Origin: Patescibacteria group bacterium
GTDB taxonomy: Bacteria; Patescibacteriota; UBA1384; JBBRAU01
Reading direction: 5' to 3'
DNA length: 64,000 bases
Assembly: GCA_038206475.1 (NCBI GenBank)
Contig: JBBRAU010000001.1
Location: forward strand, 71,235 to 135,234
Positions 44,800 through 63,846 of the stretch are shown here, piece after piece. The notes beneath the pieces were generated by a model, which saw only the letters and a list, made by a program, of their open reading frames with translations, ran no database searches and was not told where the DNA came from. Both the position numbers and the translations under genes were made by a program. The first letter of the stretch is position 1, and every line of letters begins with the position of its first letter.

Positions 44800-44875
44800 G
44801 CGCCTGTAGCTCAGTGGATAGAGCGCTGCCCTCCGAAGGCAGAGGCCACAGGTTCAAGTCCTGTCAGGCGTACCA
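44800..44875 (+). tRNA. tRNA-Arg, anticodon CCG
   Basis: Manual fold: GCGCCTG acceptor, D-arm GCTC/AGTGGATA/GAGC, anticodon stem CTGCC with loop CTCCGAA, T-arm CACAGG/TTCAAGT/CCTGT, CCA encoded. Confidence 0.85.
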
Positions 44876-44921
44876 ACCTAATTCGTTTGGAAAATAAATT
44901 GCGAACTGGGGCAATAACTTT

Positions 44922-47530: not shown

Positions 47531-47532
47531 TT

Positions 47533-49334: not shown

Positions 49335-49335
49335 T

Positions 49336-52300
49336 ATGTCCACTAACAATAAATACCATCTTGTTTCTGAAAATACGCAAAGCACCGTTGTGGCCGAATT
49401 TGCACCAGACGGCGTTCGTGTGGCGCACTATCAAAGCGAAGCAGAACTAGAAAAAGCGCTTATTCAGCAGCTTGAAACACAGGCATATGAATACGTGGCC
49501 ATTGCTACTGAAGCCGACTTGGTGGCGAACCTGAGAAAACAGCTAGAGAAACTGAACAATTTTACGTTTGGCGATAGCGAATGGGAACATTTCTTTACTG
49601 GCGAACTTGCCAACCCGAATCAGAGTATTGAAGAAAAGACAGCGACTATTCAAGAGGACTACATTAAAAACCTTACGCGCGATGACGGCACAATCAAAAA
49701 TGTGTACTTGTTAAAAAAAGACAACATTCATAATAATAGCTTGCAGGTTACCAATCAGTACGCCACAGAAGACGGTATGCGGGCTAATCGCTACGATGTG
49801 ACAGTGCTTGTGAATGGTCTGCCAATGGTGCACATCGAGCTAAAACGGCGCGGTATAGCCATTCAAGAGGCCTTCAATCAGATTAATCGCTATCAGCGCG
49901 AAAGTTTTTGGGCGGCCAGTGGGCTATTCGAATATGTGCAGTTGTTTATTATTTCCAATGGTACTCACACCAAATACTACAGCAACACCACGCGTAAAGA
50001 ACACATTAAAGATGCAAGCGAAGGCGCGGCGAAACAAGGCAAGCGCTCAAGCAACAGTTTTGAATTTACAAACTGGTGGGCCGACGCCACTAACCGGCCA
50101 ATTTCCGATCTAATGGATTTTGCCCAGACCTTTTTTGCCAAACACACGCTTCTTAATATCCTCACTCGTTACTGCGTATTTACGACCGATCGACAGCTTC
50201 TGGTGATGCGCCCATATCAAATTGTGGCAACCGAACGAATACTGAACCGCATTGAGGTGAGTACAAATTATAAGCAGCTCGGCACCATAGAAGCCGGTGG
50301 GTATGTATGGCACACCACTGGGTCAGGGAAAACTCTGACAAGCTTCAAAACAGCCCTACAGGTGAGCAAACTGGCGTATGTAGACAAAGTGGTGTTTGTG
50401 GTTGACCGCAAAGATTTAGACTACCAAACTATGCGCGAATACGACAAGTTCGAGAAAGGCGCAGCCAACAGCAACACCTCGACGGCGGTATTAAAACGAC
50501 AGTTGGAAAATCCGCAAGCCCGAATCATTATCACAACCATTCAAAAGCTCGATCATTTCGTAAGCCGCAACGCCGGACACCGTATTTTTGACGGTCACGT
50601 CGTACTTATTTTTGACGAATGCCATCGCTCACAGTTTGGTGATATGCACGCCGCAATCACAAAGGCCTTCAAGAATTACCACATTTTCGGTTTTACGGGC
50701 ACGCCAATTTTTGCGGTCAACGCGTCCTCTGGAGGCCGTCCAGATTTCAAAACGACCGAGCAGGCCTTTGGCGATAAATTGCACACGTACACCATTGTAG
50801 ACGCGATTGCCGACAAAAATGTTCTACCGTTTAAGGTGGATTATGTTTCTACGGTTCGTGAAGCCGAGGATATTGAAGATAAAAAAGTAAGCGATATTGA
50901 TCGCGAGGCAGTGCTCGCTTCTCCAGAGCGTCTGGCGAATATTGTCGGTTATATTCGTGAGCATTTTGATCAAAAAACGAAGCGCAATAGCTTCTACAAA
51001 CTGAAAGACCGGCGGTTGGCCGGCTTTAATTCTCTCTTTGCCGTTTCGTCAATTGATGTCGCTAAGAAGTACTATGTTGAGTTCAAGCGTCAGCTCGCCG
51101 ACGCGCCAAGTGATAAGCGTCTCAAAATAGCGACCATATTCAGCTTTGGTGTCAATGACGATGATGCCGACGGTATGCTAGATGAAAACTCAGATGACAC
51201 GAGCGGGCTAGACGCAAGTTCACGGGACTTTTTGGAACATGCTATCGCTGACTATAATGCGATTTTTGGGACTTCGTACGACACGTCGTCCGACAAATTT
51301 TCCAATTATTACAAAGATGTGAGCTTGCGCGTTAAAGGCCGCGAGATTGATATTTTGATCGTCGTCAACATGTTTTTAACTGGCTTTGATGCAACAACGC
51401 TTAACACACTCTGGGTTGATAAAAACTTGCGACTTCACGGCCTATTGCAAGCTTTCTCGCGGACAAACCGTATTCTCAACAGCGTAAAGACTTTTGGCCA
51501 TATCGTGTGCTTCCGCAATTTAGAAAAGGCAACGAATGAATCAATTGCGCTTTTTGGTGATAAAGAAGCCAGAGGCGTTGTATTGCTAAAATCATATGCT
51601 GAATACTACGGGGGTTACGTGCACGGTGATAAGGCGGTGCTTGGCTATGCAAATCTCGTCGCTGAGCTGCTTGAGAAGTATCCTATTGGGCAGGCTATTA
51701 TTGGCGAACAAAGTCAAAAGCATTTTATCAGACTATATGGCGCAATTTTGCGTGTGCGGAACATTTTGACGACATTTGATGAATTTGTGGGCAACGAAAT
51801 TTTGACCGCGCGTGATGTGCAAGACTACCACAGCATGTACATTGACCTCTATAACGAATTTAGCAAAGGCGTGGAAGACGACAAAGAGAACATTATCGAT
51901 GACGTCGTATTTGAGATGGAACTGATCAAACAGATTGAAATAAATATTGACTACATTTTGGGGCTCATCAAACACTATCATGAAGATCATACTCAAAACC
52001 GTGAGCTTTTGGCGGATATCAACAAAGCAATCGACTCAAGTATTGAACTGCGAAACAAAAAGGATCTTATTAATCAATTTATTTTATCGCTCGACATACA
52101 CTCAGTGGTTGATGATGATTGGCAGAAGTTTGTCAACCAGAAAAAGACGGAAGAACTTGAGCAAATTATTGAGACCGAAGGGCTGGATCGCGATGCCACC
52201 TATACGTTTGTGCGAAACGCCTTCCGCGACGGAGGCGTAATGGTGACCGGCACAGACATCTCTCGTGTTCTGCCTCCGGTATCTCGCTTTTTAGCAACCG

Positions 52301-52395
52301 GCGAGCGTTCTGAGAAACGCAATAGCGTGCTCAATAAATTAACGAGTTTCTTTGAGCGATTCTTCGATATCTCCGGCGGTTCATTCACGGACTAG
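49336..52395 (+). CDS. hsdR: Type I restriction endonuclease R subunit
   Basis: N-terminal nuclease domain, DEAD-box helicase motifs (TGSGKTLT, DECHRSQ), 1019 aa. Confidence 0.9.
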   Translation: MSTNNKYHLVSENTQSTVVAEFAPDGVRVAHYQSEAELEKALIQQLETQAYEYVAIATEADLVANLRKQLEKLNNFTFGDSEWEHFFTGELANPNQSIEEKTATIQEDYIKNLTRDDGTIKNVYLLKKDNIHNNSLQVTNQYATEDGMRANRYDVTVLVNGLPMVHIELKRRGIAIQEAFNQINRYQRESFWAASGLFEYVQLFIISNGTHTKYYSNTTRKEHIKDASEGAAKQGKRSSNSFEFTNWWADATNRPISDLMDFAQTFFAKHTLLNILTRYCVFTTDRQLLVMRPYQIVATERILNRIEVSTNYKQLGTIEAGGYVWHTTGSGKTLTSFKTALQVSKLAYVDKVVFVVDRKDLDYQTMREYDKFEKGAANSNTSTAVLKRQLENPQARIIITTIQKLDHFVSRNAGHRIFDGHVVLIFDECHRSQFGDMHAAITKAFKNYHIFGFTGTPIFAVNASSGGRPDFKTTEQAFGDKLHTYTIVDAIADKNVLPFKVDYVSTVREAEDIEDKKVSDIDREAVLASPERLANIVGYIREHFDQKTKRNSFYKLKDRRLAGFNSLFAVSSIDVAKKYYVEFKRQLADAPSDKRLKIATIFSFGVNDDDADGMLDENSDDTSGLDASSRDFLEHAIADYNAIFGTSYDTSSDKFSNYYKDVSLRVKGREIDILIVVNMFLTGFDATTLNTLWVDKNLRLHGLLQAFSRTNRILNSVKTFGHIVCFRNLEKATNESIALFGDKEARGVVLLKSYAEYYGGYVHGDKAVLGYANLVAELLEKYPIGQAIIGEQSQKHFIRLYGAILRVRNILTTFDEFVGNEILTARDVQDYHSMYIDLYNEFSKGVEDDKENIIDDVVFEMELIKQIEINIDYILGLIKHYHEDHTQNRELLADINKAIDSSIELRNKKDLINQFILSLDIHSVVDDDWQKFVNQKKTEELEQIIETEGLDRDATYTFVRNAFRDGGVMVTGTDISRVLPPVSRFLATGERSEKRNSVLNKLTSFFERFFDISGGSFTD

Positions 52396-52505
52396 CCAAA
52401 GTCACCATACGTAAATGGCAAGAGTAGGGTTTGGGCATCTTGGAAAAATAGCTACTCTAAAGCGCGTTTTTTGACACTCTGCTCGCGCCTTGCTTGAGTG
52501 AAGTT

Positions 52506-55451
52506 ATGCCAGACGACCTCGTTCAACAAGTAAAGCAACGCCTTGACATCCTTGACTTGGTCCAAGGCTATGTTCAGTTGAAAAAAACCGGCATTAACTG
52601 GAAGGGCCTCTGCCCGTTCCACCAAGAGAAAACGCCGTCGTTTACCGTCAACCAAGAACGTCAGAGCTGGCACTGTTTTGGCTGCTTCCCGAAGGGTTCT
52701 CATGTAAAAACTCCAAGAGGTTTTTGCGATATTGACCAACTTCGAGCAGGAGACGTTGTTATCTCGGGGAAAGGGCAGGAAAAGTCCGTACTCACGACGC
52801 ATCGTCATATGTATAAGGGCGAGCTCGTCCGTATTTCTTTATGCAAGCTTGGTGGCGAAGTGGCGCTAACCGGGGATCATAAAGTATTCGCTTTACGCGG
52901 AGCGCCTTACACCAAAATCTATAAAAACTTCAGCCGACGCTTGAAGCGCTACCAACAACTGCCAGCGGACCAATATCGACAAAAGCTCGACCGCTACTTC
53001 CCTGTCGAAAAAGTGGAGGCACACGAGTTAACGATTGGCGATTTGTTATTATATCCAATCTCCTACAGGACCGAACCAATCTCTTCGCTAGTCCCTTGTG
53101 ACCATTTAACAAAAACATTCCGTCTTGGGCCGAAACCGAGTGATTTACCAAAAGAGCTCCCGATTACTGACAGTCTACTGAAATTACTCGGATACTATAT
53201 TGCTGAGGGTAGTAACCATCGTGCCTACATTCGATTTAGCCTCGGTGGCCATGAGCTGAAACTCGCTAAAGAGATTCAAGTCTTGCTCAAAGAAGTGTTT
53301 GGCCTGGTCTCTAGCATCCACGTTCGCCAAGGAGGCAAGCCCGGGATAGAGGTTACGTGCTGTCACGCTGCGCTAGCCGATATTTTTGGCAACTTGTGTG
53401 GCAAAGGGGCGGCCAATAAACACATCCCTTTTGAGCTTCGGCACTTGCCAGTAGGCCAACAGCAGGTGCTGCTTAACGCCATCTGGACGGGTGACGGTAC
53501 TGCTCGTGCTAAACATCGGTCACTTAAAATTGAACGCTCAATCGGCAGTATTTCGCAGACACTGGCCGAGCAAATAGTTGATATCTTGCTGCGCAGGCAT
53601 ATCTTTCCCTCGCTTCAGGTTATCCAAGCACATACGAGCGGCGATGGCGTCAAACACAGAATGGCCTACACTGTTGTTTGGGGAGAGGCTGGTGAGGATA
53701 AATACAATAGTGTCTACCAAGCGGCGGGCGGTACTCATTATTGGGTGTTGCCAGTTGTCCATATAGCAAAAGAACCCTTCTGCGACGAGGTGTTCAACCT
53801 GACGATTGAGGATGACCATTCGTATGTCGCGCGCAATTTCGCGGTTGCCAACTGCGGCGAGGGCGGGGACATTTTTACCTTTGTCGAAAAGATTGAACAC
53901 GTTGAATTTAAAGAGGCGCTGGAGCTGCTGGCTGGCCGGGTTGGGCTGGAGGTCAAACCGCAAACGCCGGTTGAGCGTCAGCAGAAGGGCGAAAAGGCGA
54001 AACTTGAGGAGCTATACCAGCTGGCCAGCCGCTTCTACCACGCGTTGCTCATTAACCATCCGCTTGGCCAAGCTGCCCGCGATTACCTCGCCAAGCGGGG
54101 TGTTTCAGCTGAGTCGGTCAAAGCGTGGCAATTGGGTGTGGCGCCCGACCACTGGGACGCCCTGCTCTCGGCACTGCAAAAGCGCGGTTTCACGGCCGAT
54201 GAGTTGGTCAAGGCCGGATTGGCCGTCAAAAATGAGCGCGGCAACATTTATGACCGCTTTCGGAACCGCTTGTTGTTCCCGATTATCACCGCCAGCGGCC
54301 AACCGGTCGCTTTCTCTGGCCGGGTGATAACGGCTGATCAAGAACCCAAATACTTAAACTCGCCTGAGAGCCTGCTCTATCGCAAGAGCAGTGTTGTGAT
54401 GGGACTGAATTTAGCCAAAGAGGCAATTCGGAAGGCCGGCCAAGTAATGGTGGTCGAAGGCAATTTAGATGTCCTTATTTGCCAGCAGTTTGGCCTGACC
54501 AACACCGTCGCTACCGGCGGCACGGCGCTAACGTCTGACCACCTGCGCTTACTGGCTCGCTACGCCCCAGTCGTTATTTTTGCCTTTGATGCGGACGCCG
54601 CCGGCCAGAAAGCGGCTGAAAAGGCGGCGCTGTTGGCGCTAGAGGTGGGCCTGGAGCCACGCTTCATTGCCTTGCCGGCCGGAGATGACCCAGACTCGCT
54701 GCTACGCCGGGATGAAGCCGCCTTCCGCCAGGCTATGGCTGCCGCTCTGCCGGCCGTGCCGTACTTTTTAGAACGGGCGCTCAATGAGTATGGCCAGGCT
54801 ACCGCACAAGCCAAAAAGCAGGTGGCGGCAGCGGTGGTGCCGTTGCTCCGCCGCATACACGATCCAGTCGAGCAGGCGGATTCATTGCAGCAGGTGGCCG
54901 ACCGACTGCATGTGCCACGAGAGGCCATAGAGAGTGCTGTTTCAGCTGAGACGAAGGCAAAAACGACCGTTCCGGTGGTAGCGGCGACCGCCCGCCGCGG
55001 TCCGCTCGAGCCAAGCCAGCGCTTGTTTGGCCTGCTGCTGCTCTCGGAACGGCCACTGCCACCGCTTGACCCACTGCTACAGGATAGTCCAGACAAAACG
55101 CTGCAGTTTTTGCAGGCTCGGCAGGCAGAGGGGATTGGCGACAAGATGAGTTGGGCGACGTGGCAGGCCAAGCAACCGCAGCCAATCCAGGCGCGTTTGG
55201 CCTCACTGCTGACCGTGGCGGCCGAAGCCTACGGTGAGTTGCCACAGGAGCAGTTCGAGGCTGAAATTACGCTGCTTTTGGCGGCGCTGCGTTCCCGGGT
55301 TCTTGAGCACCAGCAATCGGACCGCCAGGCCGAAATTCGGCTGGCCGAGCAGGCGGGCGACAAGGCGCGCGTACGCTCACTGCTGCAAGAGATGATGGAT
55401 GATTTGGTCATGCCCCCACCGGCCAGCGCGGATCCTCGTCAAAAAACATAA
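52506..55451 (+). CDS. dnaG: DNA primase DnaG interrupted by an intein
   Basis: Zinc ribbon CPFHQEKTPSF..WHCFG. The extein resumes CGEGGDIFTFV. TOPRIM (VVEGNLDVL) and a C-terminal helicase-binding domain are present. Start taken at ATG 52506 (MPDDLVQQVK); the ORF-track 52494 is TTG. Confidence 0.85.
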   Translation: MPDDLVQQVKQRLDILDLVQGYVQLKKTGINWKGLCPFHQEKTPSFTVNQERQSWHCFGCFPKGSHVKTPRGFCDIDQLRAGDVVISGKGQEKSVLTTHRHMYKGELVRISLCKLGGEVALTGDHKVFALRGAPYTKIYKNFSRRLKRYQQLPADQYRQKLDRYFPVEKVEAHELTIGDLLLYPISYRTEPISSLVPCDHLTKTFRLGPKPSDLPKELPITDSLLKLLGYYIAEGSNHRAYIRFSLGGHELKLAKEIQVLLKEVFGLVSSIHVRQGGKPGIEVTCCHAALADIFGNLCGKGAANKHIPFELRHLPVGQQQVLLNAIWTGDGTARAKHRSLKIERSIGSISQTLAEQIVDILLRRHIFPSLQVIQAHTSGDGVKHRMAYTVVWGEAGEDKYNSVYQAAGGTHYWVLPVVHIAKEPFCDEVFNLTIEDDHSYVARNFAVANCGEGGDIFTFVEKIEHVEFKEALELLAGRVGLEVKPQTPVERQQKGEKAKLEELYQLASRFYHALLINHPLGQAARDYLAKRGVSAESVKAWQLGVAPDHWDALLSALQKRGFTADELVKAGLAVKNERGNIYDRFRNRLLFPIITASGQPVAFSGRVITADQEPKYLNSPESLLYRKSSVVMGLNLAKEAIRKAGQVMVVEGNLDVLICQQFGLTNTVATGGTALTSDHLRLLARYAPVVIFAFDADAAGQKAAEKAALLALEVGLEPRFIALPAGDDPDSLLRRDEAAFRQAMAAALPAVPYFLERALNEYGQATAQAKKQVAAAVVPLLRRIHDPVEQADSLQQVADRLHVPREAIESAVSAETKAKTTVPVVAATARRGPLEPSQRLFGLLLLSERPLPPLDPLLQDSPDKTLQFLQARQAEGIGDKMSWATWQAKQPQPIQARLASLLTVAAEAYGELPQEQFEAEITLLLAALRSRVLEHQQSDRQAEIRLAEQAGDKARVRSLLQEMMDDLVMPPPASADPRQKT
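52683..53852 (+). mobile_element. Intein (390 aa) with LAGLIDADG homing endonuclease inserted in the DnaG zinc-binding motif
   Basis: Begins with Cys right after HCFG (CFPKGSHVKT..) and has a block-B-like TGDH. Two LAGLIDADG-like motifs are LLGYYIAEGS and LLNAIWTGDG. It ends ..DDHSYVARNFAVAN followed by extein Cys. Removing it restores HCFGCGEGGD. Confidence 0.7.
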
Positions 55452-56715: not shown

Positions 56716-56744
56716 TGCCTGTTATGCTAATTTGGGCATATTGT

Positions 56745-56819
56745 TCCTGGGTAGCTCAATGGCAGAGCGGCTGGCTGTTAACCAGCGGGTTGTCGGTTCG
56801 AGTCCGACCCCAGGAGCCA
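56745..56819 (+). tRNA. tRNA-Asn, anticodon GTT
   Basis: Manual fold: acceptor TCCTGGG/CCCAGGA, anticodon stem GCTGG with loop CTGTTAA, T-arm GTCGG/TTCGAGT/CCGAC, CCA encoded. Confidence 0.85.
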
Positions 56820-56955
56820 AAACAATGCAGGCGTAGCCTGTTTTTGTTTTGGCTCCTGGGGGACAGGAGTTGAACTGCCGCATGGCGGTTCGGTCGTGAG
56901 CGGAGTGAACGGGGGTACCCTGCGTAGCCAGGGGTCTGTCCGACCCCAGGAGCCA
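56820..56955 (+). repeat. tRNA-linked element B: ~118-nt insert followed by an exact 18-nt copy (GTCCGACCCCAGGAGCCA) of the tRNA-Asn 3' end
   Basis: The direct repeat lies at 56802-56819 and 56938-56955. An 18-nt perfect inverted copy of the tRNA 3' end plus trailer (56808-56825 vs 56844-56861) forms a long hairpin. It shares conserved blocks with element A. Confidence 0.5.
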
Positions 56956-57021
56956 ATACCGAGATTTAGAAGATTAAGCATCGCGGCCCTTGACGCAATG
57001 CTGATTGTAGTATTTTATGGA

Positions 57022-58743
57022 TTATCCGAAGGTGAAGGCAAAAGCCTCAATGCTTGGACTTTCGAAGATAAGGGTAAGGACGTGCCAGTCTCCCGCAGTC
57101 TTCAAATGAATTAGGTGGTACAGTCGATCTTCGGAAATCTGGAAGTTGCCATTTTTGACGTCGGCTCCGCCCGAAGCACCCGCTGCCTTGCCATCAAGCA
57201 GTACCCGCACGGTGGCGGAAACGCCGTTTTGCGGCTTCATAACCAAATAAACGTCTTTACCGGTAAAATGGAATGAGAGCGAATCTCCGGATGCGCTGGA
57301 AGTAATAGAGTCGGTTCCGCTTTGCCAGTTTCCAGAAAGGCCCCATTCGTTATTGCCAAGTTTCAGCGGATTAGTTTCCGATGAGTACCTATCCCGGCGC
57401 GCCAAACCCAAATAGGTTTCTGGAGACTGCTGTTCATGGGGAGTGGTATCGGACAGCTTTGGTGCCATGGAGGGCAGGGCGGAAACCTTGGCCTCTTTCA
57501 GAAGTGAGCGGATGTTGGCCTCAGTTTCGTCATAATTTCCCTCGCCGAAATGGGTAGCCCGCACCTGCCCCTTGGCGTCAATCAGGTACTCGGCCGGCCA
57601 ATACTGGTTGTCGTAGGCTTTCCACGTAGCAAAGTCATTGTCCTGGGCTACCGGATAGTGAATTGCGTACTGCTTGATGGCCGCTGCAAGGTTTTTGCTC
57701 TCCTTTTCGAAGGCGAACTCTGGTGAGTGTACACCCACCACCACAAAGCCCTGATCTTTGTAGGTATCGTACCAGTTGGTTATGTGTGGAAGGGTTCTAA
57801 TGCAGTTAATGCAGGAATAGGTCCAGAAATCGACCAATACTACCTTGCCTCTCAGACTTTCTACAGTGAGTGGCTTACTATTCAGCCAGCCGGTGATGCC
57901 GGAGAATTCGGGAGCTTTCCCCAGCACTGGCAGGCCTGAGGAGGCTCCGTTGATGATTTGTGAAGTGCTGGGCATGGCATTGTCGTCATTACTTTTTAAT
58001 TTTTTCAACTGACCTTTCACCAAATCGCCTTGCTCCAACTGCTGGGTTAAGCCGGAGCTAATGCTGCTTGGCAGCTTGGCCAATAAACTCGTTTGTAGCG
58101 TTCGGTCAAGGCCGAAGAGCATTGCAATTGCCGTGAACACCATGATGGCTCCAAACACCATTTGTACTTTTGGTATTGACTTATTGACTGAGCGCATGCG
58201 GCGCAATAAGCCTTGGCCGCCGTAGGTAAGAATCAAAAGCGGAATGCTAACGCCCAGCGCGTAGGCCTCGGTAATTAAAACTGAAGCAAGGGTTACAGTG
58301 CTGGAAGCGGCCAAGGATATAACTGAGGCGACAATAGGCCCAACGCAAGGCGTCCACACTAAGCCAAGGCTGACGCCAATAACGAATCCGCCTAAAAAAT
58401 CGCTGCGCTTGGAATCTATTTTCACCTGAGGAATACGGCTGCTCACCCAAGCTTCAAACGCCGCAAGCAATTTGGGCACGAGAAGCATGACGCCAAAAAC
58501 CAGAATTACGATGATGGCGAATAAGCGAAGGCCATCAGGGCTTATCCCCAGATGCCGTGTTAGCCAGCTAAGAGAAAGGGTAAAAAAGGTAAAGCTCAAG
58601 ACCAGCCCGGTTACAATACCAAGAGGCCGTTGTTTGCCGCCGCTAATCCCGGCTGAAAGCACTATCGGTAGGACCGGCAGGATGCAAGGGGCGAATATGG
58701 TGGCAATTCCGGCCAGGAACGCGAAAAGGATAAGTAAGGGCAT
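57022..58743 (-). CDS. Thiol:disulfide interchange protein: DsbD/CcdA-like transmembrane domain fused to a thioredoxin-like (TlpA/ResA) domain
   Basis: N-terminal polytopic region with conserved Cys pair (FAPCILPVLP). Periplasmic redoxin domain with WTYSCINC (CxxC). 573 aa. Confidence 0.65.
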   Translation of the reverse strand: MPLLILFAFLAGIATIFAPCILPVLPIVLSAGISGGKQRPLGIVTGLVLSFTFFTLSLSWLTRHLGISPDGLRLFAIIVILVFGVMLLVPKLLAAFEAWVSSRIPQVKIDSKRSDFLGGFVIGVSLGLVWTPCVGPIVASVISLAASSTVTLASVLITEAYALGVSIPLLILTYGGQGLLRRMRSVNKSIPKVQMVFGAIMVFTAIAMLFGLDRTLQTSLLAKLPSSISSGLTQQLEQGDLVKGQLKKLKSNDDNAMPSTSQIINGASSGLPVLGKAPEFSGITGWLNSKPLTVESLRGKVVLVDFWTYSCINCIRTLPHITNWYDTYKDQGFVVVGVHSPEFAFEKESKNLAAAIKQYAIHYPVAQDNDFATWKAYDNQYWPAEYLIDAKGQVRATHFGEGNYDETEANIRSLLKEAKVSALPSMAPKLSDTTPHEQQSPETYLGLARRDRYSSETNPLKLGNNEWGLSGNWQSGTDSITSSASGDSLSFHFTGKDVYLVMKPQNGVSATVRVLLDGKAAGASGGADVKNGNFQISEDRLYHLIHLKTAGDWHVLTLIFESPSIEAFAFTFG

Positions 58744-58866
58744 GGATTAAAAGGTCAGAACGTCGTCATAGGTGGAAAGCACCTCTTGTTTCAGGGTCTT
58801 TCCTTGAGCATCTATTCGTACAAAAGCGGTCTGGTGGGTAATAGCGTACTTTTTCTTCAAATCCTT

Positions 58867-59283
58867 TTATTGGTCGTAGTCCACCTTGACAATAACCGTG
58901 TTAGCACCAAGTTTTGAGAGATCATCGGTATTTTCCAGCTTTTTCTGGATGGCCTGGCAGTCAGGGCACCAGGAAGCATCGAAGAAGTAGACAACGTCTT
59001 TACCGTGGTCTTTGACTAAGGCTTGGACGTTCGCTTCCGAAGTATAAGAAATGAAAACAGCCCCAGTATCCTTTTTTATAGCCATAGTCTCTTGCTCTTT
59101 TTCTTTCATCATTATTACTTCATCAGCAGTGGCGGTTGGTGCGATTTCCTTTTGCATCGGTTTTTCTGACTTCATCATGATATCGGTAGCATTTCTATTG
59201 AAAAGACTGGATTGGTTTGCATAGACTGTACCTGCCACAATTACTACGAGAGCTACAACTGTTGGAACGAAGTATTTGTTCAT
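58867..59283 (-). CDS. Secreted thioredoxin-family protein
   Basis: Signal or TM MNKYFVPTVVALVVIVAG and the CxxC motif FFDASWCPDCQ. Confidence 0.6.
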   Translation of the reverse strand: MNKYFVPTVVALVVIVAGTVYANQSSLFNRNATDIMMKSEKPMQKEIAPTATADEVIMMKEKEQETMAIKKDTGAVFISYTSEANVQALVKDHGKDVVYFFDASWCPDCQAIQKKLENTDDLSKLGANTVIVKVDYDQ

Positions 59284-59294
59284 GTTCTCCTTGG

Positions 59295-59651
59295 TTACTT
59301 ATATCGATGGTACAAAAAGGCGAACAATCGGCCTGTTGCAGCCAAGCCTAGCACCGTCCAAAAGGCCATAGCCAGCTCGGAGTGGGGATAAAATATTGTT
59401 GCTGCCAGCAGACCGGCAATGACTATGTAGAGAGCAGCACTATCAGACTCAAGCTGCAGCAGATGCTCGCGCTCGTCCTTCTCACCGGCACTCACTACTT
59501 TCGTCAGAACGACCAGCAGCAAAATGAGAGCTGCTGAGACGACTGATGTTGGTCCCATGCCGAAATGTGGGGCGAACAGACGCTCTAATAAATAGATAAG
59601 CACACCGAATATGATGAGGCCGGCTAATTTTAAAGGGGCATTCGCTTTCAT
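59295..59651 (-). CDS. Small membrane protein (3-4 TM), partner of the upstream XRE regulator
   Basis: 118 aa, hydrophobic. ATGA overlap with the XRE gene at 59648-59651. Confidence 0.45.
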   Translation of the reverse strand: MKANAPLKLAGLIIFGVLIYLLERLFAPHFGMGPTSVVSAALILLLVVLTKVVSAGEKDEREHLLQLESDSAALYIVIAGLLAATIFYPHSELAMAFWTVLGLAATGRLFAFLYHRYK

Positions 59652-59851
59652 TTTTGTTCCTTTAATTGAAAGATATCTTCTACCCGTACCTTAAAAAAAG
59701 CAGCAAGCCGTAAGGCCAGGACCACCGAAGATTGATACTTGTTTTGCTCGATGGCGATCACTGTCTGGCGGATCACGCCAATTTCCTCAGCCAATCCTTG
59801 CTGAGTAAGGCCAAGCTCGGCCCGCAGTACTTTGAGTCGGTTGGTTAACAT
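59648..59851 (-). CDS. XRE-family HTH transcriptional regulator (68 aa)
   Basis: LKVLRAELGLTQQGLAEEIGVIRQTVIAIEQNKYQSS is a Cro/C1-type HTH. Start placed at ATG 59851 (MLTNRLK). Confidence 0.65.
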   Translation of the reverse strand: MLTNRLKVLRAELGLTQQGLAEEIGVIRQTVIAIEQNKYQSSVVLALRLAAFFKVRVEDIFQLKEQK

Positions 59852-60144
59852 AACTTGAATGTATGGTATACAATACATTTTGTCAAAAGTGACGTACATA
59901 TTCATGCTGGCCGGATCGAATATTAAGATATATCCCCATGATCATAAGCCCGCTGCGGGCCTTAGTTGCCATTTTGGTAGTGAGACACAGGGATGCTTGA
60001 GGTTGGGTATAGTGCTCGGCCTCTTTTTGTTCTGCCGAGTTATAACAATTTGGTATCTCAGGAGCCACGTCTAACCCAGTTTGGGTTGGGTTATTACCAA
60101 GTGTAAAAATATCGCCTTAGGCGATATTTTGTTATGGTCAGTTT

Positions 60145-60744
60145 GTGTCAGAAGGATTAGGGTTTTCCCTGGGAGAATTTGAACCACAGGTACCAGTGGA
60201 GAATTTTCTCAAACCAGAACGGCGTATATCAGTAGAAATTTCTAACCAGGCATTCGAGCATTTTCCCGAAATATCGCCTGAAGAGCTTGAATCCAAGCAG
60301 GAGCGCTATTTCCTGCTGCTTGGTAATTCAGGCATCGAAGGCAGTGTCAAAATTAACGGCGTGATGCAGCTTGAAGACACAACCGGTTTTTACCAGGAAG
60401 GCAGGGAGTCTGTTGCCGGAGTAAATATCTCAGCACTAAAATCTATAGCGGATGGGGTAAGGACGCTTGGTCCAGAATATACATCTTGGCACTTTGTTGG
60501 TGAAATGCACACCCATCCGGTGATTCAGGAAGAACTTGATGTAAATCAACGCTCACACCACCCCTCAGAGGAAGATATACAGGCATGGATTGCCTGCTAT
60601 GAACGTGGAGAATTGACTGGCGATACGCCCTTCATTTTTGCGATTGCCGGAGCTCAAGAAAATGGCAGTACTGGGTATGCGTATTATCGAGTAGTTAAGG
60701 AGAGCGATCGATTGGTGGTCGTATCTGTAGCGGAGCATGACTGA
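60145..60744 (+). CDS. JAB/MPN (JAMM-like) domain protein
   Basis: GEMHTHPV...SHHPSEEDI gives HxH ... S..D spacing resembling the JAMM metalloprotease motif. GTG start. 199 aa. Confidence 0.45.
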   Translation: MSEGLGFSLGEFEPQVPVENFLKPERRISVEISNQAFEHFPEISPEELESKQERYFLLLGNSGIEGSVKINGVMQLEDTTGFYQEGRESVAGVNISALKSIADGVRTLGPEYTSWHFVGEMHTHPVIQEELDVNQRSHHPSEEDIQAWIACYERGELTGDTPFIFAIAGAQENGSTGYAYYRVVKESDRLVVVSVAEHD

Positions 60745-60882
60745 TCAGTTATAACTTCCTGCCATCTCAGGAGCCAAGGTATTGATGTAATCAGTAAAAA
60801 ATTGTATTAGCATAAACAACTCAGGCTTTCGAGCCTGTTTTATATATTGCTTTGTAACTTGACCGAACGCATTTGGGAGAAC

Positions 60883-61071
60883 ACGATGGAGAACTTGCCT
60901 AGGCGCAACATCGGAGTGACTGGCTTCATGACCCCTCAGGAGATTGATGCCGTTCAGAAGACTTTTTCAATGCTGAATCATGAACACCGAGTACTGAACA
61001 AGGGCGGAGTCTATCCGCGCTTCATGATCGGTATTCTAGTTAGCGCCAAGACGGCAGTTAAACAAAAATAG
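60883..61071 (+). CDS. Hypothetical small protein (~62 aa)
   Basis: GGGAG SD 6 nt before ATG 60883. Followed by a clean intrinsic terminator (61064-61090: AAATAGCC-gtcaat-GGCTATTT + TTT). Confidence 0.35.
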   Translation, partial: TMENLPRRNIGVTGFMTPQEIDAVQKTFSMLNHEHRVLNKGGVYPRFMIGILVSAKTAVKQK

Positions 61072-61269
61072 CCGTCAATGGCTATTTTTGTTAGGGCCAA
61101 ATCATACCCGCAGCACATTGCGCCATATTCTTCAGGGGTAGGTATCACCGATAAATTAGCTTGAACATGGTTGTTAATGTGCGGTATTCCTCGATACGCT
61201 ACCCACTTTCAATACTTTATGGTTGACAATCACGTACGAATAGTCCATATTCACACGCAAGCTGTTGTC

Positions 61270-61308
61270 CTCGTCCCTTCGAGCGTGTTTCACGCTCGAA
61301 GGGACGAG
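61270..61308 (+). promoter_or_regulatory. Perfect 18-bp inverted repeat with 3-nt loop in the leader of the 61365 gene
   Basis: CTCGTCCCTTCGAGCGTG-ttt-CACGCTCGAAGGGACGAG. No U-tract follows. It sits between a TTGACA-containing region and the AAGGAG RBS of the next gene. Confidence 0.5.
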
Positions 61309-61364
61309 AGTGAACAATCTGACGCGCTCACAGGCGCCTATATCAACAAGGAGATGATTTTATC

Positions 61365-62282
61365 ATGAAGTCTGTAACCCCAGAGCAAGCGAGACAAGTG
61401 CTCGACTTCCTCCGAGACGGCATTCTGCCGACCCTGCAATACGCAGGGTACGACACTGTACAAGCGGCTATCTCCCGTTCCGAACGGGTGCACAAACTGC
61501 AACAGGCCGTCCGGCCTCTCATTACCGAGTTTCTCAATCCCAACCCTTACAAGGACGAAAAGAAGAATCCAAACCATGAGTTCAATTACACCACCGAGCA
61601 TCTTCCCCGTGTCGAAGAGCAGGCGGTCAAGCAACTGGCGGGCCTCGGCCTCACCGCTCAACCCATCCTCGTTCCCTTGACCGGCAAACAGGAACAGGGA
61701 GCCGACGGTATGATGGCGCTGCCGTATCTCGCCGACCTCGGTCGCAAGATGGGCATCGACAACCCGACCCGCTCCGGCTATGCCGAAGTGACGAACCGGG
61801 TGCTCACCGCCCTCAACAATTCTCACCGGTTCTACAAATACCGTAAGGCAAAGGTCGACAGTGACCATCTCCGTCTCAACGACGAAGTGGCGAGCTTGAT
61901 CGAGAAGCTGGAGAGCGAATCGACCATACCGGCCCAACCAGGCATCATTCGCTTCCATCTCTTGCCCATCAGCACCGGCGCGGTCTACGCGGGCTACTCG
62001 CCGAGAAACGCCCGTACTGATGCCTTACTCTCCGGCAACCTCCCCCTCGGCTCAGCCCACACCGGCTGCATTCTCCTGTCCTGGACGCGGCGGCTGGAAA
62101 AGTGGGAGCAGCGCCTCATCGACTGTTCTGCCGACGAGTGTCGCTTGGAGAATGGCGAGTGGCTTGGCTGCTTGTACTTCCACTTCGGTGGAGACAAGTT
62201 ACGCCTCGATGTCTGCGACGCTGGCAATGCCCTTGCCAGCACCGGATCGCCCGTGGCCTATCTCGACGCTAGGCCATCGTAG
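61365..62282 (+). CDS. Hypothetical protein (305 aa), no recognisable family
   Basis: AAGGAG RBS. Ends with an intrinsic terminator at 62306-62345 (GAGAGACAACC-aaaacatc-GGTTGTCTCTC + TTTTGTTTTG). Confidence 0.45.
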   Translation: MKSVTPEQARQVLDFLRDGILPTLQYAGYDTVQAAISRSERVHKLQQAVRPLITEFLNPNPYKDEKKNPNHEFNYTTEHLPRVEEQAVKQLAGLGLTAQPILVPLTGKQEQGADGMMALPYLADLGRKMGIDNPTRSGYAEVTNRVLTALNNSHRFYKYRKAKVDSDHLRLNDEVASLIEKLESESTIPAQPGIIRFHLLPISTGAVYAGYSPRNARTDALLSGNLPLGSAHTGCILLSWTRRLEKWEQRLIDCSADECRLENGEWLGCLYFHFGGDKLRLDVCDAGNALASTGSPVAYLDARPS

Positions 62283-62595
62283 CGTGCCATTCGCTCCTTT
62301 CACCTGAGAGACAACCAAAACATCGGTTGTCTCTCTTTTGTTTTGTTTAAAAACCAATACCCTCCGCAGTAACTCAAGAGATTGGTTTTTCAGTTAATCC
62401 TTAAAAAGACCGGCGCTTTAGCCAAACTAATGCCGAGGTACAAAATAGAAATTGCCGAGTTTGAGCTACCTGTGCAGTGCGGCGAAGAGGAGGGGGCTGT
62501 CCGCCGAGGCGTAATTGGACTCTTGAGGAGCGAGAGCTAGAGCCGCGAAGATTTCGCCGTTCCTGAGAGAAAGCAGGTATTGCTCAGCTGACCTT

Positions 62596-63066
62596 TCACC
62601 CGTCGTCCGAGACATTATGCGCTATGGCGGCGCGAATTAGTTCTTTTAAAGCTTTTTCGTCAATTTGGTCGTCCTGGTGAAAATCGATGGCGCGTCGCGT
62701 GCTGCCTTCCAGGCTTGAGTTGAAAAGACCGGAAGGGTCCTTTAGTGCGGCGCCCTTGGCGAAGGTTAGCTTGACAACATCTTTGTATACCTCGCCGGTG
62801 CAGATCATGCCTGCATGCAACCAAACCGGTACGCCAAGTGGGCTGCTGGGCTTGACCCACTTACATGCTTCAGCCACCTCGGGGTCAGCCTGCTTGATGA
62901 GAGTACGGATATGTGCGAGCATCTCACCACGCCAATCGACGAGCTCTTTGATGCGTGTGTCAATCATGCGAGATGGAGAATCTTCGGCTGTATCTTGAGT
63001 AGTTTGTGTAGAGTTATTCACCTTAGTATCGTAACGGCATACCTCACTTTGAAGCAATGGTTTCAT
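62596..63066 (-). CDS. DUF1801 (YdhG-like) domain protein
   Basis: Pattern WRGEMLAHIRTLI..ADPEV.E..KW..P..G......YKD.VKL.F.KGA.L.D resembles the YdhG/DUF1801 family. The start may be the internal Met (MIDTRIKEL). Confidence 0.45.
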   Translation of the reverse strand: MKPLLQSEVCRYDTKVNNSTQTTQDTAEDSPSRMIDTRIKELVDWRGEMLAHIRTLIKQADPEVAEACKWVKPSSPLGVPVWLHAGMICTGEVYKDVVKLTFAKGAALKDPSGLFNSSLEGSTRRAIDFHQDDQIDEKALKELIRAAIAHNVSDDG

Positions 63067-63124
63067 GGCCTTGAGGCAGGCGAGAGACGTGAGAAAAACT
63101 ACTGTCCTGCGTGTGTCTGGCCGC

Positions 63125-63439
63125 CTAGTGCGGCCGAGATTTTCTACTGAGCACCCAGCTTACCGATGGACTTATCGGCTTATCGGTGCGATGCGGGCAA
63201 CCAATCCAACAGCACGGCCGGCGTTTGCCTTCCAACAACTTTGTCCGCACGCGCTCAATATGTTCTCTACGCGTTTCTTCCTTTTTGACGAACTCAACCC
63301 AACAAATCCACTCGTTGCGCGCGAGAGGTGTAAGACCTTGCCAGATATCGCGCAACGATGCAGAAGATATGAGAGTTTTTTTTAAATCGGCTGGCACACT
63401 GTGTACCACACCACCAGCAAGTTCGTCTTTAATTGTCAT
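63125..63439 (-). CDS. YdeI/OmpD-associated-like small protein
   Basis: 104 aa; a W..L.P..R.EWI.W motif and basic C-terminus fit this small family. Confidence 0.4.
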   Translation of the reverse strand: MTIKDELAGGVVHSVPADLKKTLISSASLRDIWQGLTPLARNEWICWVEFVKKEETRREHIERVRTKLLEGKRRPCCWIGCPHRTDKPISPSVSWVLSRKSRPH

Positions 63440-63534
63440 AGCTGCATTTTTAATCAGTTGTGGTATTTATGCAACAGAGTGTATGGTTGTAAACGTTTAA
63501 TCATGTAAAGCATGAGTATGAAGATAGGAGTCTA

Positions 63535-63846
63535 GTGCACAATAACCAACTGATGGGACGGGGCACCTTGCATGGACTTGGCGTGATGGCATACTGCGCG
63601 GCTGTGTCGCAGGTCATTAGCCACAGCGACCAATTGTTTGGCCACATGGACACGGTATTGACCGGTGCCGCCTTTTTGATGCTGCTGACACTGTCGGCTG
63701 CCACTGTCGGAGCGCTCATTTTTGGCAAGCCGGCGCTTTTGTACGCCGAAGGTAAAAAGCAGCAAGCGATTATGCTTGTCGGTTACACCTTGGGCACGCT
63801 TGCTATACTGACTATTCTGCTGATGGTGGTGGTTGCTGCACGGTAG
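63535..63846 (+). CDS. Small membrane protein
   Basis: Two to three predicted TM helices (AAFLMLLTLSAATVGALIFG, LGTLAILTILLMVVVAA). Confidence 0.35.
   Translation: MHNNQLMGRGTLHGLGVMAYCAAVSQVISHSDQLFGHMDTVLTGAAFLMLLTLSAATVGALIFGKPALLYAEGKKQQAIMLVGYTLGTLAILTILLMVVVAAR

What the first reader, a model, noticed from the sequence alone, without database searches (positions are those of the whole stretch)
60038..60776. JAB/MPN-domain gene bracketed by 30-nt imperfect direct repeats, in a low-GC accessory segment
AGTTATAAC-(8 nt variable)-ATCTCAGGAGCCA occurs at 60038-60067, 78 nt upstream of the JAB gene. It occurs again at 60747-60776, 3 nt after the gene's stop and ~100 nt upstream of the next small gene. 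Identical ends around a variable core could be a duplicated promoter/operator, since TTATAAC is -10-like and AGGAG is SD-like. They could also be cassette boundary sites. The surrounding 59.3-63.9 kb region is visibly lower in GC and holds only small or unknown genes: XRE, a membrane protein, JAB, a 62-aa protein, a 305-aa protein, DUF1801 and a YdeI-like protein. Prokaryotic JAB proteins recur in ubiquitin-like and CBASS-type defense modules.
Basis: seen in the sequence. Interest (0 to 1): 0.5.

Follow-up and report, generated by a model that had tools for sequence, protein, structure and literature searches.

The report
tRNA-Asn-end insertion scars flanking JAB gene
The two 30-base repeats around this small metalloprotease gene most likely mark the edges of DNA inserted at the end of a nearby tRNA-Asn gene in a Patescibacteria chromosome, which is an ordinary kind of genome variability seen here in an unusually small, one-gene form.

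Summary
The repeat AGTTATAAC-N8-ATCTCAGGAGCCA is real: 60038-60067 and 60747-60776, 2 matches against 0 expected. It brackets a 199-aa ORF that belongs to a small family (~76 clusters) with the JAMM/MPN+ fold and an intact E..HxH..S..D motif.

The repeat is probably not a promoter or ribosome-binding site, and the gene has no defence-type partners. The right block is the 3' end of tRNA-Asn (ACCCCAGGAGCCA, 56807-56819, same strand, 3.2 kb upstream) with two transitions, and conservation stops exactly at CCA. That tRNA also has a 22-nt copy of its 3' end (21/22 identical, first 18 exact) 136 nt downstream. After repeat 2 comes a copy of the tRNA's own downstream flank and terminator.

A metagenome contig carries the same 30-mer at the stop codon of an unrelated WapI-like immunity gene, followed by a flank resembling the tRNA-Asn downstream flank of a relative. 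The closest JAB homologue is bracketed by an 11-nt repeat of a tRNA-Lys 3' end.

Best reading (about 0.6): att-type junction scars of serial insertions at tRNA-Asn. The JAB gene is a 709-bp one-gene unit with conserved ends. No recombinase was found. Moderate interest; a variant of a known kind.

The parts
56745..56819 (+). tRNA-Asn(GTT) gene. Its last 13 nt are ACCCCAGGAGCCA. Proposed target (attB/attL side) of the insertions.
   Evidence: ARAGORN, Rfam tRNA 69 bits, sequence.
56820..56844 (+). Native downstream flank and terminator of tRNA-Asn: AAACAATG-CAGGCGTAGCCTGTTTT.
   Evidence: The pattern CAGGC-N(2-7)-GCCTGTTTT occurs only here and after repeat 2 (0.01 expected).
56938..56959 (+). 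22-nt direct repeat of the tRNA-Asn 3' end (21/22 identical, first 18 nt exact), 136 nt downstream of the original. A separate att-type scar.
   Evidence: and 105 (family D3).
57007..59901 (-). Four-gene block: 573-aa DsbD/thioredoxin-like protein, 138-aa thioredoxin-like protein, 118-aa membrane protein, XRE regulator. It lies between the tRNA-end copy and repeat 1 and is conserved in the closest genome at another locus.
   Evidence: 77% nt identity to L001 11737-8843, stopping at the XRE start. L001 has no tRNA-Asn, rpoD or 30-mer nearby. Pfam.
59999..60023 (+). Terminator-like hairpin H0 with a T run, 14 nt before repeat 1.
60038..60067 (+). Repeat 1 (AGTTATAAC-AATTTGGT-ATCTCAGGAGCCA). Proposed junction between two tandem insertions.
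60070..60137 (+). Left end of the JAB unit: a small hairpin (60070-60090), a perfect 12-bp hairpin H1 (60106-60130) and TTTTGTTATGG (60127-60137), ending 7 nt before the start codon. It is conserved in contig L081 in front of an unrelated gene.
   Evidence: I17; 85% over 41 nt, E=3.5e-7.
60145..60744 (+). 199-aa JAMM/MPN+ (JAB) metalloprotease-like gene with residues E53, H122, H124, S141 and D144 intact. The start at GTG 60145 is supported by homologues. The public annotation starts 17 codons later.
60747..60776 (+). Repeat 2 (AGTTATAAC-TTCCTGCC-ATCTCAGGAGCCA). Proposed attR-type right junction.
60814..60841 (+). AAACAACT-CAGGCTTTCGAGCCTGTTTT (hairpin H2): a copy of the native tRNA-Asn downstream flank and terminator, 37 nt after repeat 2.
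60886..61071 (+). 61-aa ORF of unknown function. Its last codons contain AGTTAAAC, a one-base-shorter version of the left block.
   Evidence: no family match.
61061..61096 (+). Hairpin H3 (13-bp perfect stem) plus TTTTGTTAGGG. The same 18-nt 3' half occurs in L081 seven nt before a DUF218 gene.
   Evidence: (I11).

Best explanation
**What it is.** The two 30-mers are att-type junction scars left by serial insertion of foreign DNA at the 3' (CCA) end of the tRNA-Asn gene at 56745-56819. Each scar has two parts. The short tRNA-derived core is CAGGAGCCA, within the conserved block ATCTCAGGAGCCA. On its left is a conserved sequence from the end of the inserted element (AGTTATAAC, 8 variable nt, AT).

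**Proposed layout.**
- tRNA-Asn with a supplied terminator.
- A 118-nt remnant bounded by a near-exact copy of the tRNA 3' end.
- A 3-kb four-gene block.
- Repeat 1.
- A 709-bp one-gene unit: a hairpin-bearing left end, the JAB gene, and repeat 2.
- The displaced original downstream flank and terminator of the tRNA.

The left-end hairpin H1 would terminate the tRNA or upstream transcript. The cargo ORF starts 14 nt after it.

**Shown.**
- The right block matches the tRNA-Asn 3' end in register.
- The tRNA's native flank and terminator recur after repeat 2.
- The same 30-mer and the same left end recur around an unrelated gene in another Patescibacteria contig.
- JAB-family genes sit beside tRNA genes or tRNA-end repeats in three other contexts.

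**Inferred.**
- The units were inserted by site-specific recombination with the crossover inside or next to CAGGAGCCA.
- The recombinase acts in trans or has been lost.
- AGTTATAAC is a recombinase-binding or element-end motif.

The JAB protein is probably passive cargo: an active JAMM-type metallopeptidase of unknown substrate.
For: **1. Match to the tRNA end.** Apart from the two repeats, the only matches to ATCTCAGGAGCCA with up to 2 mismatches in 128 kb of both strands are the tRNA-Asn 3' terminus and its downstream copy, both in register at CCA. CAGGAGCCA occurs 5 times against 0.58 expected. Identity among all three full copies stops exactly after CCA.

**2. The tRNA is a recombination target.** It lies on the same strand 3.2 kb upstream, and a 22-nt repeat of its 3' end (21/22 identical, first 18 exact) lies 136 nt downstream.

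**3. Displaced native flank.** AAACAA-NN-CAGGC-loop-GCCTGTTTT follows both the tRNA (56820-56844) and repeat 2 (60814-60841). The pattern occurs nowhere else, with 0.01 expected.

**4. Independent contig L081**.
- The identical blocks overlap the stop codon of a WapI-like immunity gene (Pfam E=3e-13).
- They are followed by TTTGAAAAAG plus a hairpin. In relative L095 the tRNA-Asn is followed by TTTGAAAAGG plus a hairpin.
- A degenerate copy and a near-identical H1 hairpin precede that gene.
- A tRNA-Asn 3' fragment lies 270 nt further on.
- So the ends are the same and the cargo differs.

**5. JAB-family contexts.**
- L084: tRNA-Lys, 108 nt, JAB, then an 11-nt repeat TGGCCCTCCAA of the tRNA-Lys 3' end.
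- L085/L086: JAB abuts a 22-nt tRNA-Ala 3' fragment about 170 nt from tRNA-Ala.
- L087: tRNA-Ala lies 424 nt upstream.

**6. Variability.** Synteny with the closest genome (L001) ends at the XRE start, about 130 nt before repeat 1, and L001 carries other accessory genes there. The region downstream of tRNA-Asn differs in L091, L092 and L095. GC is 0.44-0.49 from 56956 to 61100, against 0.545 for the first 44.8 kb.

**7. Known precedent.** In Dehalococcoides, tandem islands are bounded by repeats of the ssrA 3' end. Each repeat is preceded by a conserved motif that does not match ssrA itself (PMC3146451). Integrase-less att-flanked units (CIMEs) and tandem accretion are described in PMC5704250.
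Against: - No integrase or recombinase gene lies between 56.8 and 64.0 kb, nor among the other window ORFs scanned. The window ends at 64 kb and the rest of the genome was not available.
- The tRNA-derived part is short: 9 nt exact, 11/13 overall.
- The 8-nt centre differs between copies. That is incompatible with these two copies being the attL/attR pair of one tyrosine-recombinase event whose crossover lies in the centre.
- Only three full copies and one degenerate copy of the 30-mer are known. One exact-pattern scan each of the genome and metagenome collections and two of the viral contigs gave only L081 and one chance hit.
- Distant family members sit in core-like operons: yceG-JAB-mreB in L089 and murB/dacA in L087. 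L087 also has YdeI and membrane-protein homologues within 4 kb, as in the window. JAB may therefore be an old resident of this neighbourhood rather than a recent import.
- No excised form or empty site was observed.
- The JAB start lies 14 nt after a terminator-like hairpin, so how the gene is transcribed is unexplained.
Confidence: 0.6

Rival explanations
1. Regulatory DNA element. The two conserved blocks would be a duplicated promoter or operator (TATAAC as -10, AGGAG as SD), or a two-box binding site for a regulator such as the neighbouring XRE protein, controlling JAB and the 61-aa gene.
For: - Two invariant blocks around a variable spacer is what a protein-binding site looks like.
- GTTATAAC is an 8-bp palindrome.
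- JAB starts only 14 nt after hairpin H1, so it must be transcribed from somewhere upstream, possibly through or from repeat 1.
Against: - Neither copy has a -35 partner, and the scan did not call them.
- TATAAC lacks the conserved final T.
- No start codon follows AGGAG at a usable distance.
- The motif lies at the 3' end of ORFs, on the stop codon in L081, and each copy is followed by a terminator-like hairpin.
- The XRE block is conserved in L001 without the motif.
- This reading does not explain the in-register match to the tRNA-Asn 3' end or the duplicated tRNA flank.
Confidence: 0.1
2. Functional RNA element in the 3' UTR. The transcript would end each cassette mRNA with a small hairpin (YYUG/CAGG) followed by AGCCA, mimicking the tRNA-Asn acceptor end. 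It could serve as a processing, stability or decoy signal, for example for RNase P/Z, the CCA-adding enzyme or a tRNA-targeting toxin.
For: - The variable core keeps YYTG in all three full copies (TTTG, CCTG, CTTG). YYUG can pair with the invariant CAGG through C-G or U-G pairs.
- In repeat 2 the core TCCTG equals the first 5 nt of tRNA-Asn, giving a 5-6 bp acceptor-like microhelix plus GCCA.
- The position is always just after a stop codon.
- The L081 cargo is a WapI-like immunity protein. From my own knowledge, WapA toxins are tRNases; this was not tested here.
Against: - With three sequences there is no statistical covariation.
- The stem is only 4 bp in two copies, and the two sites do not share a predicted fold.
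- No Rfam family matches.
- This reading does not explain the left block or the duplicated tRNA flank.
Confidence: 0.1
3. Integron-type cassette array. The roughly 100-nt units from AGTTATAAC (inverse-core-like) to GTTATGG/GTTAGGG (core-like GTTRRRY) would be attC sites recombined by an IntI-type integrase.
For: - Two of the four copies (both in L081) overlap the preceding ORF's stop codon and repeat 2 starts 2 nt after one. A GTTRRRY-like heptamer lies 7 nt before the start codon of JAB and of two L081 ORFs. At H3 no usable start codon follows it.
- The ORFs are co-oriented and short, and lie in an accessory region.
Against: - The heptamers fit the consensus only 5-6 of 7.
- The 60038-60137 unit folds into three separate hairpins, not one imperfect hairpin with extrahelical bases.
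- Repeat 2 and the L081 copy have no GTTRRRY partner.
- H3 is a 40-nt perfect hairpin, shorter than known attC sites (my own knowledge).
- No intI is present in the window.
Confidence: 0.05
4. Leftover of a local duplication, or recombinase-independent capture. For example, circular DNA carrying a tRNA-Asn copy could have integrated by Campbell-type homologous recombination, after which the redundant tRNA copies decayed. The repeats would have no present function and no dedicated enzyme.
For: - The tRNA-end fragments and the duplicated terminator are compatible with decayed tRNA gene copies.
- L084 keeps bits of both the 5' part (ATTAGCTC) and the 3' end of tRNA-Lys after JAB.
- No recombinase was found.
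Against: - Three copies in two organisms share exactly the same 22 block bases with a saturated core, which uniform decay cannot produce.
- The left block does not resemble the tRNA or its 5' flank above chance.
Confidence: 0.1

Closest known systems
Tandem genomic islands at the 3' end of a tRNA or tmRNA gene, bounded by direct repeats of that end (for example Dehalococcoides ssrA islands, PMC3146451)
   Same: - The target is the 3' end of a small stable-RNA gene.
- Repeats of that end recur downstream in the same orientation and separate unrelated accessory genes.
- Each repeat is preceded by a conserved motif that does not match the target gene itself.
- GC is lower and synteny with relatives is broken.
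   Different: - No integration module is present here, whereas Dehalococcoides islands carry a serine recombinase, DsiB.
- The unit is tiny: 709 bp with one gene.
- The tRNA-derived repeat is only 9-13 nt.
- The organism is a Patescibacteria (CPR) bacterium.
Cis-mobilizable elements (CIMEs) and site-specific accretion (PMC5704250)
   Same: A DNA segment flanked by att-type repeats but lacking integration and transfer genes, lying in tandem with other units at one target gene.
   Different: - CIMEs are defined relative to a known parental ICE or IME and its integrase. None is identified here.
- Mobilisation was not shown.
Integron gene cassettes (attC sites)
   Same: Single promoter-less ORFs, a boundary motif at or on the stop codon, conserved boundaries with exchangeable cargo, and co-orientation.
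   Different: - No intI was found.
- The boundary does not fold like an attC.
- The boundary carries a tRNA 3'-end sequence.
- The array starts at a tRNA gene rather than at attI.
Prokaryotic JAB/JAMM proteins of CBASS (Cap3) and bacterial ubiquitin-like operons
   Same: JAMM/MPN+ fold and a complete E..HxH..S..D motif. Weak matches to PADLOC JAB models.
   Different: - Stand-alone gene with no CD-NTase, E1/E2 or Ubl neighbour in any of seven contexts.
- Family members occur in yceG-mreB and murB/dacA neighbourhoods.
- The distinct N-terminal region (residues 1-60) is conserved within the family.

Membership tests
tRNA-gene-linked genomic island / integrative element scar | Lies downstream of a tRNA gene, in the orientation of its 3' end | tested here: met
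   tRNA-Asn is at 56745-56819 (+). The repeats are at 60038 and 60747 (+), 3.2 and 3.9 kb downstream.
tRNA-gene-linked genomic island / integrative element scar | Bounded by a direct repeat of the tRNA 3' end | tested here: met
   The match is 11/13 (9/9 exact) and in register at CCA. These are the only such matches in the window. The tRNA's flank and terminator are duplicated after repeat 2. The repeat is short, so this feature is met only weakly.
tRNA-gene-linked genomic island / integrative element scar | Encodes an integrase or recombinase next to one att site | tested here: not met
   No recombinase domain was found in ORFs of 56.8-64.0 kb, nor in 19 other window ORFs scanned. The rest of the genome was not available.
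tRNA-gene-linked genomic island / integrative element scar | Absent or different at the same place in relatives; atypical composition | tested here: met
   L001 synteny ends at the XRE gene. L091, L092 and L095 have other genes after tRNA-Asn. GC is 0.44-0.49 against 0.545.
tRNA-gene-linked genomic island / integrative element scar | Excision or integration demonstrated (empty site, circular junction) | not testable with these tools
   Reads of SRR19962014 could not be accessed. The one other assembly of this locus (L082) is identical.
Integron cassette array | intI integrase with attI and Pc next to the array | tested here: not met
   None was found in the window.
Integron cassette array | attC: a single imperfect hairpin with R''/L''-L'/R' boxes and extrahelical bases | tested here: not met
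   60030-60140 folds into three separate hairpins. The heptamers fit 5-6 of 7. Repeat 2 has no R' partner.
   The scan did not call either copy. No start codon follows AGGAG at a usable distance (after R2 a TTG lies 8 nt downstream but opens only TTG-ATG-TAA). The copies lie at ORF 3' ends and before terminator-like hairpins.
JAMM/MPN+ (JAB) metalloprotease | MPN fold with the E...HxH...S..D zinc and catalytic motif | tested here: met
   AF2 model pLDDT 94. Foldseek hits to BRCC36, Rpn11, CSN5 and AMSH at E about 1e-7. E53, H122, H124 and D144 are invariant and S141 is nearly invariant in 49 family members. 18 of 49 members hit Pfam Prok-JAB.
CBASS Cap3 / bacterial ubiquitin-like defence operon | JAB gene adjacent to CD-NTase plus E1/E2 (Cap2), or to Ubl/E1/E2 genes | tested here: not met
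   The neighbours here are XRE, a membrane protein, a 61-aa ORF and a 305-aa orphan. No such partner occurs in L084-L090.

The most novel reading that the evidence does not exclude
Patescibacteria may carry a family of integrase-less, single-gene cassettes of about 0.7 kb. Each would have a conserved left end of about 70 nt (terminator hairpin plus TTTTGTTAKGG just before the start codon) and a 30-nt right end (AGTTATAAC-N8-ATCTCAGGAGCCA). They would insert one after another at the CCA end of tRNA-Asn and carry exchangeable cargo, such as a JAMM protease here and a WapI-like immunity gene in L081. That would be an integron-like cassette array that uses a tRNA gene's 3' end as its attachment site, with a recombinase supplied in trans.
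Probability: 0.2. Interest if true: 0.7.

Novelty: new variant of a known kind. Interest (0 to 1): 0.4.

Why it matters
Gene flow in the ultra-small, host-dependent CPR/Patescibacteria is poorly understood, and my three full-text literature searches surfaced no paper focused on mobile elements in this group. Suppose these short tRNA-end-bearing junctions really delimit one-gene units with conserved ends and swappable cargo. They would then give a simple sequence signature for finding accessory-gene insertion sites and their cargo across CPR genomes, and would point to a recombinase still to be identified. If they are only decayed scars, the finding is an ordinary tRNA-linked variable region. 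In either case it corrects the annotation: the JAB start codon moves, and there is no defence operon here.

Tried and rejected
1. **Left block versus the tRNA-Asn 5' flank.** GTTATAACAATTTGG resembles GTTATGCTAATTTGGG (56721-56736), which tempted me to read the 30-mer as an internally deleted tRNA gene. An objective scan of the window gave several better chance hits (scores 16-24) than my hand-computed score of 15 for that flank, which was not among the top hits. Rejected.
2. **tRNA relic beyond 13 nt.** No T-arm is present and C61 is absent.
3. **Rfam.** No family matches in 58.5-64 kb at E<=10 apart from chance miRNA or sRNA hits.
4. **Common RNA fold.** The two copies have none.
5. **Sigma-54-like reading of the minus strand.** The -12 element fits 2 of 4 by inspection. 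Rejected.
6. **Small peptide MAPE..YN on the minus strand, and the 37-aa ORF called across repeat 1 in L082.** There is no support in the second copy.
7. **Extra copies.** The L001 ATCTCAGGAG hit lies inside a GluRS/GlnRS gene. The viral hit L083 lies in AT-rich, apparently coding sequence (judged by eye). Both are treated as chance.
8. **GC-rich spacers between tRNAs and their fragments versus the group I introns of relatives' tRNA-Asn.** No homology beyond the tRNA end.
9. **att-like repeats around the four-gene block in L001.** None.
10. **JAB family in other collections.** No match for the JAB protein in phage records or for the family profile in IMG/VR contigs. No DNA match for 59900-61400 in plasmids.
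11. **305-aa ORF.** Its only match in the 5.8-billion-protein database is its own NCBI record, and it has no Pfam, PHROG or PADLOC hit. The single-sequence AF2 model has pLDDT 38, so no fold search was run.
12. **61-aa ORF.** No family match.
Full report
**1. Observation**

The 30-mer AGTTATAAC-N8-ATCTCAGGAGCCA occurs at 60038-60067 and 60747-60776 on the + strand. With up to 3 mismatches these are the only matches in the window, and none occurred in 100 shuffles. The 9-nt and 13-nt blocks are identical, 2 of 8 core bases agree, and nothing aligns beyond the 30 nt. Neither block occurs elsewhere in the 64 kb, except as described in section 4.

**2. Setting**

The window is chromosomal DNA of a Patescibacteria (CPR) bacterium.
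- It holds yidC, dnaA, dnaN and recF at 3.6-9 kb.
- A type I restriction-modification island follows tRNA-Arg at 44.9-52.4 kb.
- Then come dnaG (with an intein), rpoD and tRNA-Asn(GTT) at 56745-56819.
- The closest genome representative is L001, a 'Patescibacteria group bacterium' with 82% aa identity on the 573-aa protein.
- Nucleotide synteny with L001 covers 57007-59901 (573-aa DsbD/thioredoxin-like protein, thioredoxin-like protein, membrane protein, XRE). It stops at the XRE start codon, about 130 nt before repeat 1.
- None of the JAB, 61-aa, 305-aa, DUF1801, YdeI or 103-aa genes occur in L001's 21.7-kb locus. L001 instead has a RelB/YafQ pair and other small genes there.
- GC is 0.46 for the JAB unit and 0.435 for the 61-aa unit, against 0.545 for the first 44.8 kb. 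The 305-aa gene region is 0.56.

**3. The gene**

- The 199-aa ORF matched only its own NCBI record (P0001) in the word-indexed search of 5.8 billion proteins.
- Full HMMER against 1.84 billion cluster representatives found 76 relatives at E<=1e-3, 66 of them at E<=1e-10. The best is 43% identical and most are 170-215 aa, apart from some fragments and one 599-aa protein.
- In an alignment of 49 members, E53, G60, G119, H122, H124 and D144 are invariant and S141 is nearly so. This is the JAMM motif.
- 18 of 49 members hit Pfam Prok-JAB.
- The AF2 model has pLDDT 94. It matches BRCC36, Rpn11, CSN5, AMSH and an archaeal Rpn11 homologue at E about 1e-7.
- Homologues align upstream of the annotated start (the conserved P-V before D/E-F-L), so the gene starts at GTG 60145, not 60196.
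- No family member was found in phage records or IMG/VR contigs, and the 59900-61400 DNA has no plasmid match.
- None of seven genomic contexts contains E1/E2/Ubl/cyclase partners. L089 has yceG-JAB-mreB-mreC-PBP2. L087 has murB, a D-Ala-D-Ala carboxypeptidase, tRNA-Ala, a 117-aa ORF, JAB and an amino-acid kinase.
- The defence reading is therefore not supported.

**4. What the repeat is**

A scan of metagenome contigs found one further exact copy, in L081, at 640-669. A blast of L081 against the window returned both the repeats and the 3' end of tRNA-Asn.
- The tRNA ends ...GTCCGACCCCAGGAGCCA.
- The right block ATCTCAGGAGCCA equals its last 13 nt with two transitions.
- Apart from the repeats, the only matches with up to 2 mismatches in the window are that terminus and a downstream copy of it, both in register at CCA.
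- With 1.18 chance matches expected per 128 kb, a match falling exactly on one of five tRNA termini has a probability of about 5e-5.
- CAGGAGCCA occurs 5 times against 0.58 expected.
- Conservation among all three full copies ends exactly at CCA.
- The tRNA-Asn 3' end is repeated at 56938-56959 (22 nt, 95%, first 18 exact). This shows that the tRNA has been a recombination target.

**5. The displaced flank**

The tRNA is followed by AAACAATG-CAGGCGTAGCCTGTTTT. Thirty-seven nt after repeat 2 comes AAACAACT-CAGGCTTTCGAGCCTGTTTT. The pattern CAGGC-N(2-7)-GCCTGTTTT occurs only at these two places, with 0.01 expected. Repeat 2 therefore sits where an attR would, next to the tRNA's original downstream flank.

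The same holds in L081. Its 30-mer is followed by TTTGAAAAAG plus a hairpin. In relative L095 (RpoD 88% identical) the tRNA-Asn is followed by TTTGAAAAGG plus a hairpin.

**6. Conserved ends, different cargo**

L081 shares three non-coding pieces with the window, in the same order and strand:
- the H1 hairpin plus TTTTGTTATGGT (85% over 41 nt, E=3.5e-7);
- the 30-mer;
- the 3' half of H3 plus TTTTGTTAGGG (18/18).

The ORFs between them are unrelated. In L081 a WapI-like immunity gene (Pfam E=3e-13) is preceded by a degenerate copy of the repeat on the previous gene's stop codon and by H1. It ends inside the 30-mer, using TTA TAA as its last codons. For JAB and for two L081 ORFs, TTTTGTTAKGG lies 7 nt before the start codon; after H3 in the window no start codon follows.

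Each unit therefore has a left end (hairpin, T run, start), a cargo ORF and a right end (the 30-mer).

**7. Other JAB contexts**

- L084: tRNA-Lys, 108 nt, JAB, 24 nt, then TGGCCCTCCAA. This is an 11-nt repeat of the tRNA-Lys acceptor 3' strand plus CCA.
- L085/L086: JAB is followed 21 nt later by a 22-nt fragment of the 3' end of the tRNA-Ala gene that lies about 170 nt further on.
- L087: tRNA-Ala lies 424 nt upstream.

That is three of four informative contexts, and I estimate tRNA genes occur about once per 20 kb in such genomes.

**8. Mechanism**

The simplest account is serial insertion at the tRNA-Asn 3' end, as described for tandem islands at tRNA and tmRNA genes.

In Dehalococcoides the repeats of the ssrA 3' end are each preceded by a conserved motif that does not match ssrA, because it comes from the element (PMC3146451). 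The left block here would be the equivalent. Units that keep att sites but have no integrase are known as CIMEs and arise by accretion and decay (PMC5704250).

What is inferred and not shown:
- that a site-specific recombinase did this;
- that the crossover lies at or next to CAGGAGCCA;
- that AGTTATAAC is a binding site.

The differing 8-nt centres exclude the two copies being products of one tyrosine-recombinase event with its crossover in the centre. They fit better as the right ends of two related elements.

**9. Weak points**

- No recombinase was found in the window.
- The tRNA-derived core is short, and only four copies of the motif are known.
- Distant family members are in core-like operons. 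L087 also has YdeI (59% identical) and the 103-aa membrane protein within 4 kb of JAB, as in the window. The neighbourhood may therefore be partly ancestral.
- JAB starts 14 nt after a terminator-like hairpin, so its transcription is unexplained.
- My attractive idea that the left block derives from the tRNA's 5' flank failed an objective test.

**10. Verdict**

The 'cassette boundary' reading is supported in a refined form. The promoter/SD and defence readings are not supported. This is a small, integrase-less variant of the well-known tRNA-linked insertion scar, in a phylum where such things are little described. Interest is moderate (0.4). There is about a 0.2 chance that it represents a real cassette system with a tRNA end as its attachment site.

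Noticed in passing
window 44800-52395: A type I restriction-modification operon (HsdM, RhuM-family protein, HsdS, T5orf172-domain protein, HsdR) lies in a low-GC segment (0.45) that starts right after tRNA-Arg(CCG). This looks like a second tRNA-linked island in the window.
   Followed up: partly
window 52494-55451: DnaG primase is 985 aa because it carries an intein with a LAGLIDADG domain. DnaG of relatives is 568-612 aa.
   Followed up: no
window 56820-56959: A 118-nt GC-rich, hairpin-rich segment lies between tRNA-Asn and a 22-nt repeat of its 3' end. It may be a tiny or emptied insertion. L081 (700-951) and L085 (6385-6580) have similar GC-rich spacers next to tRNA fragments, with no detectable homology among them.
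   Followed up: partly
L095 4292-4576; L091 6118-6700: In two relatives the tRNA-Asn gene appears to be split in the anticodon loop by a long insertion that looks like a group I intron by eye. It is about 210 nt in L095 and about 510 nt with a 96-aa ORF in L091. ARAGORN therefore missed both genes. I did not run Rfam on either locus. The window's tRNA-Asn has no such insertion.
   Followed up: no
window 61223-61364: A promoter-like site (TTGACA-17-CATATT) is followed by a perfect 18-bp inverted repeat (61270-61308) and an AAGGAG ribosome-binding site in front of the 305-aa orphan ORF. This could be an operator or an attenuator. The ORF's only database match is its own NCBI record and its single-sequence structure model is poor.
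   Followed up: partly
window 60106-60137 and 61061-61096; L081 131-163 and 1497-1525: A hairpin type AAA(T)AT(C)GCC-loop-GGC(G)ATATTTT followed by GTTAKGG occurs only in this 1-kb stretch of the window and twice in L081. In three of the four cases it ends 7 nt before a start codon. It may be a portable terminator plus ribosome-binding module.
   Followed up: partly
L081 171-647: The ORF bounded by the same 30-mer in the metagenome contig is a WapI-like immunity protein with no toxin gene beside it. Next to it, on the other strand, is a 149-aa basic ORF with no family match.
   Followed up: partly
L087 6001-10301 and window 60145-63846: JAB, a YdeI/OmdA protein (59% identical) and a small membrane protein (32% identical) lie within 4 kb of each other in both genomes, despite different intervening genes.
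   Followed up: no
window 59845-60023: A + strand promoter-like site (TTAACA-18-TACAAT) diverges from the XRE gene, and a terminator-like hairpin lies 150 nt downstream. Together they could define a small transcript antisense to the XRE 5' end. Fold z-score is only -1.0.
   Followed up: no
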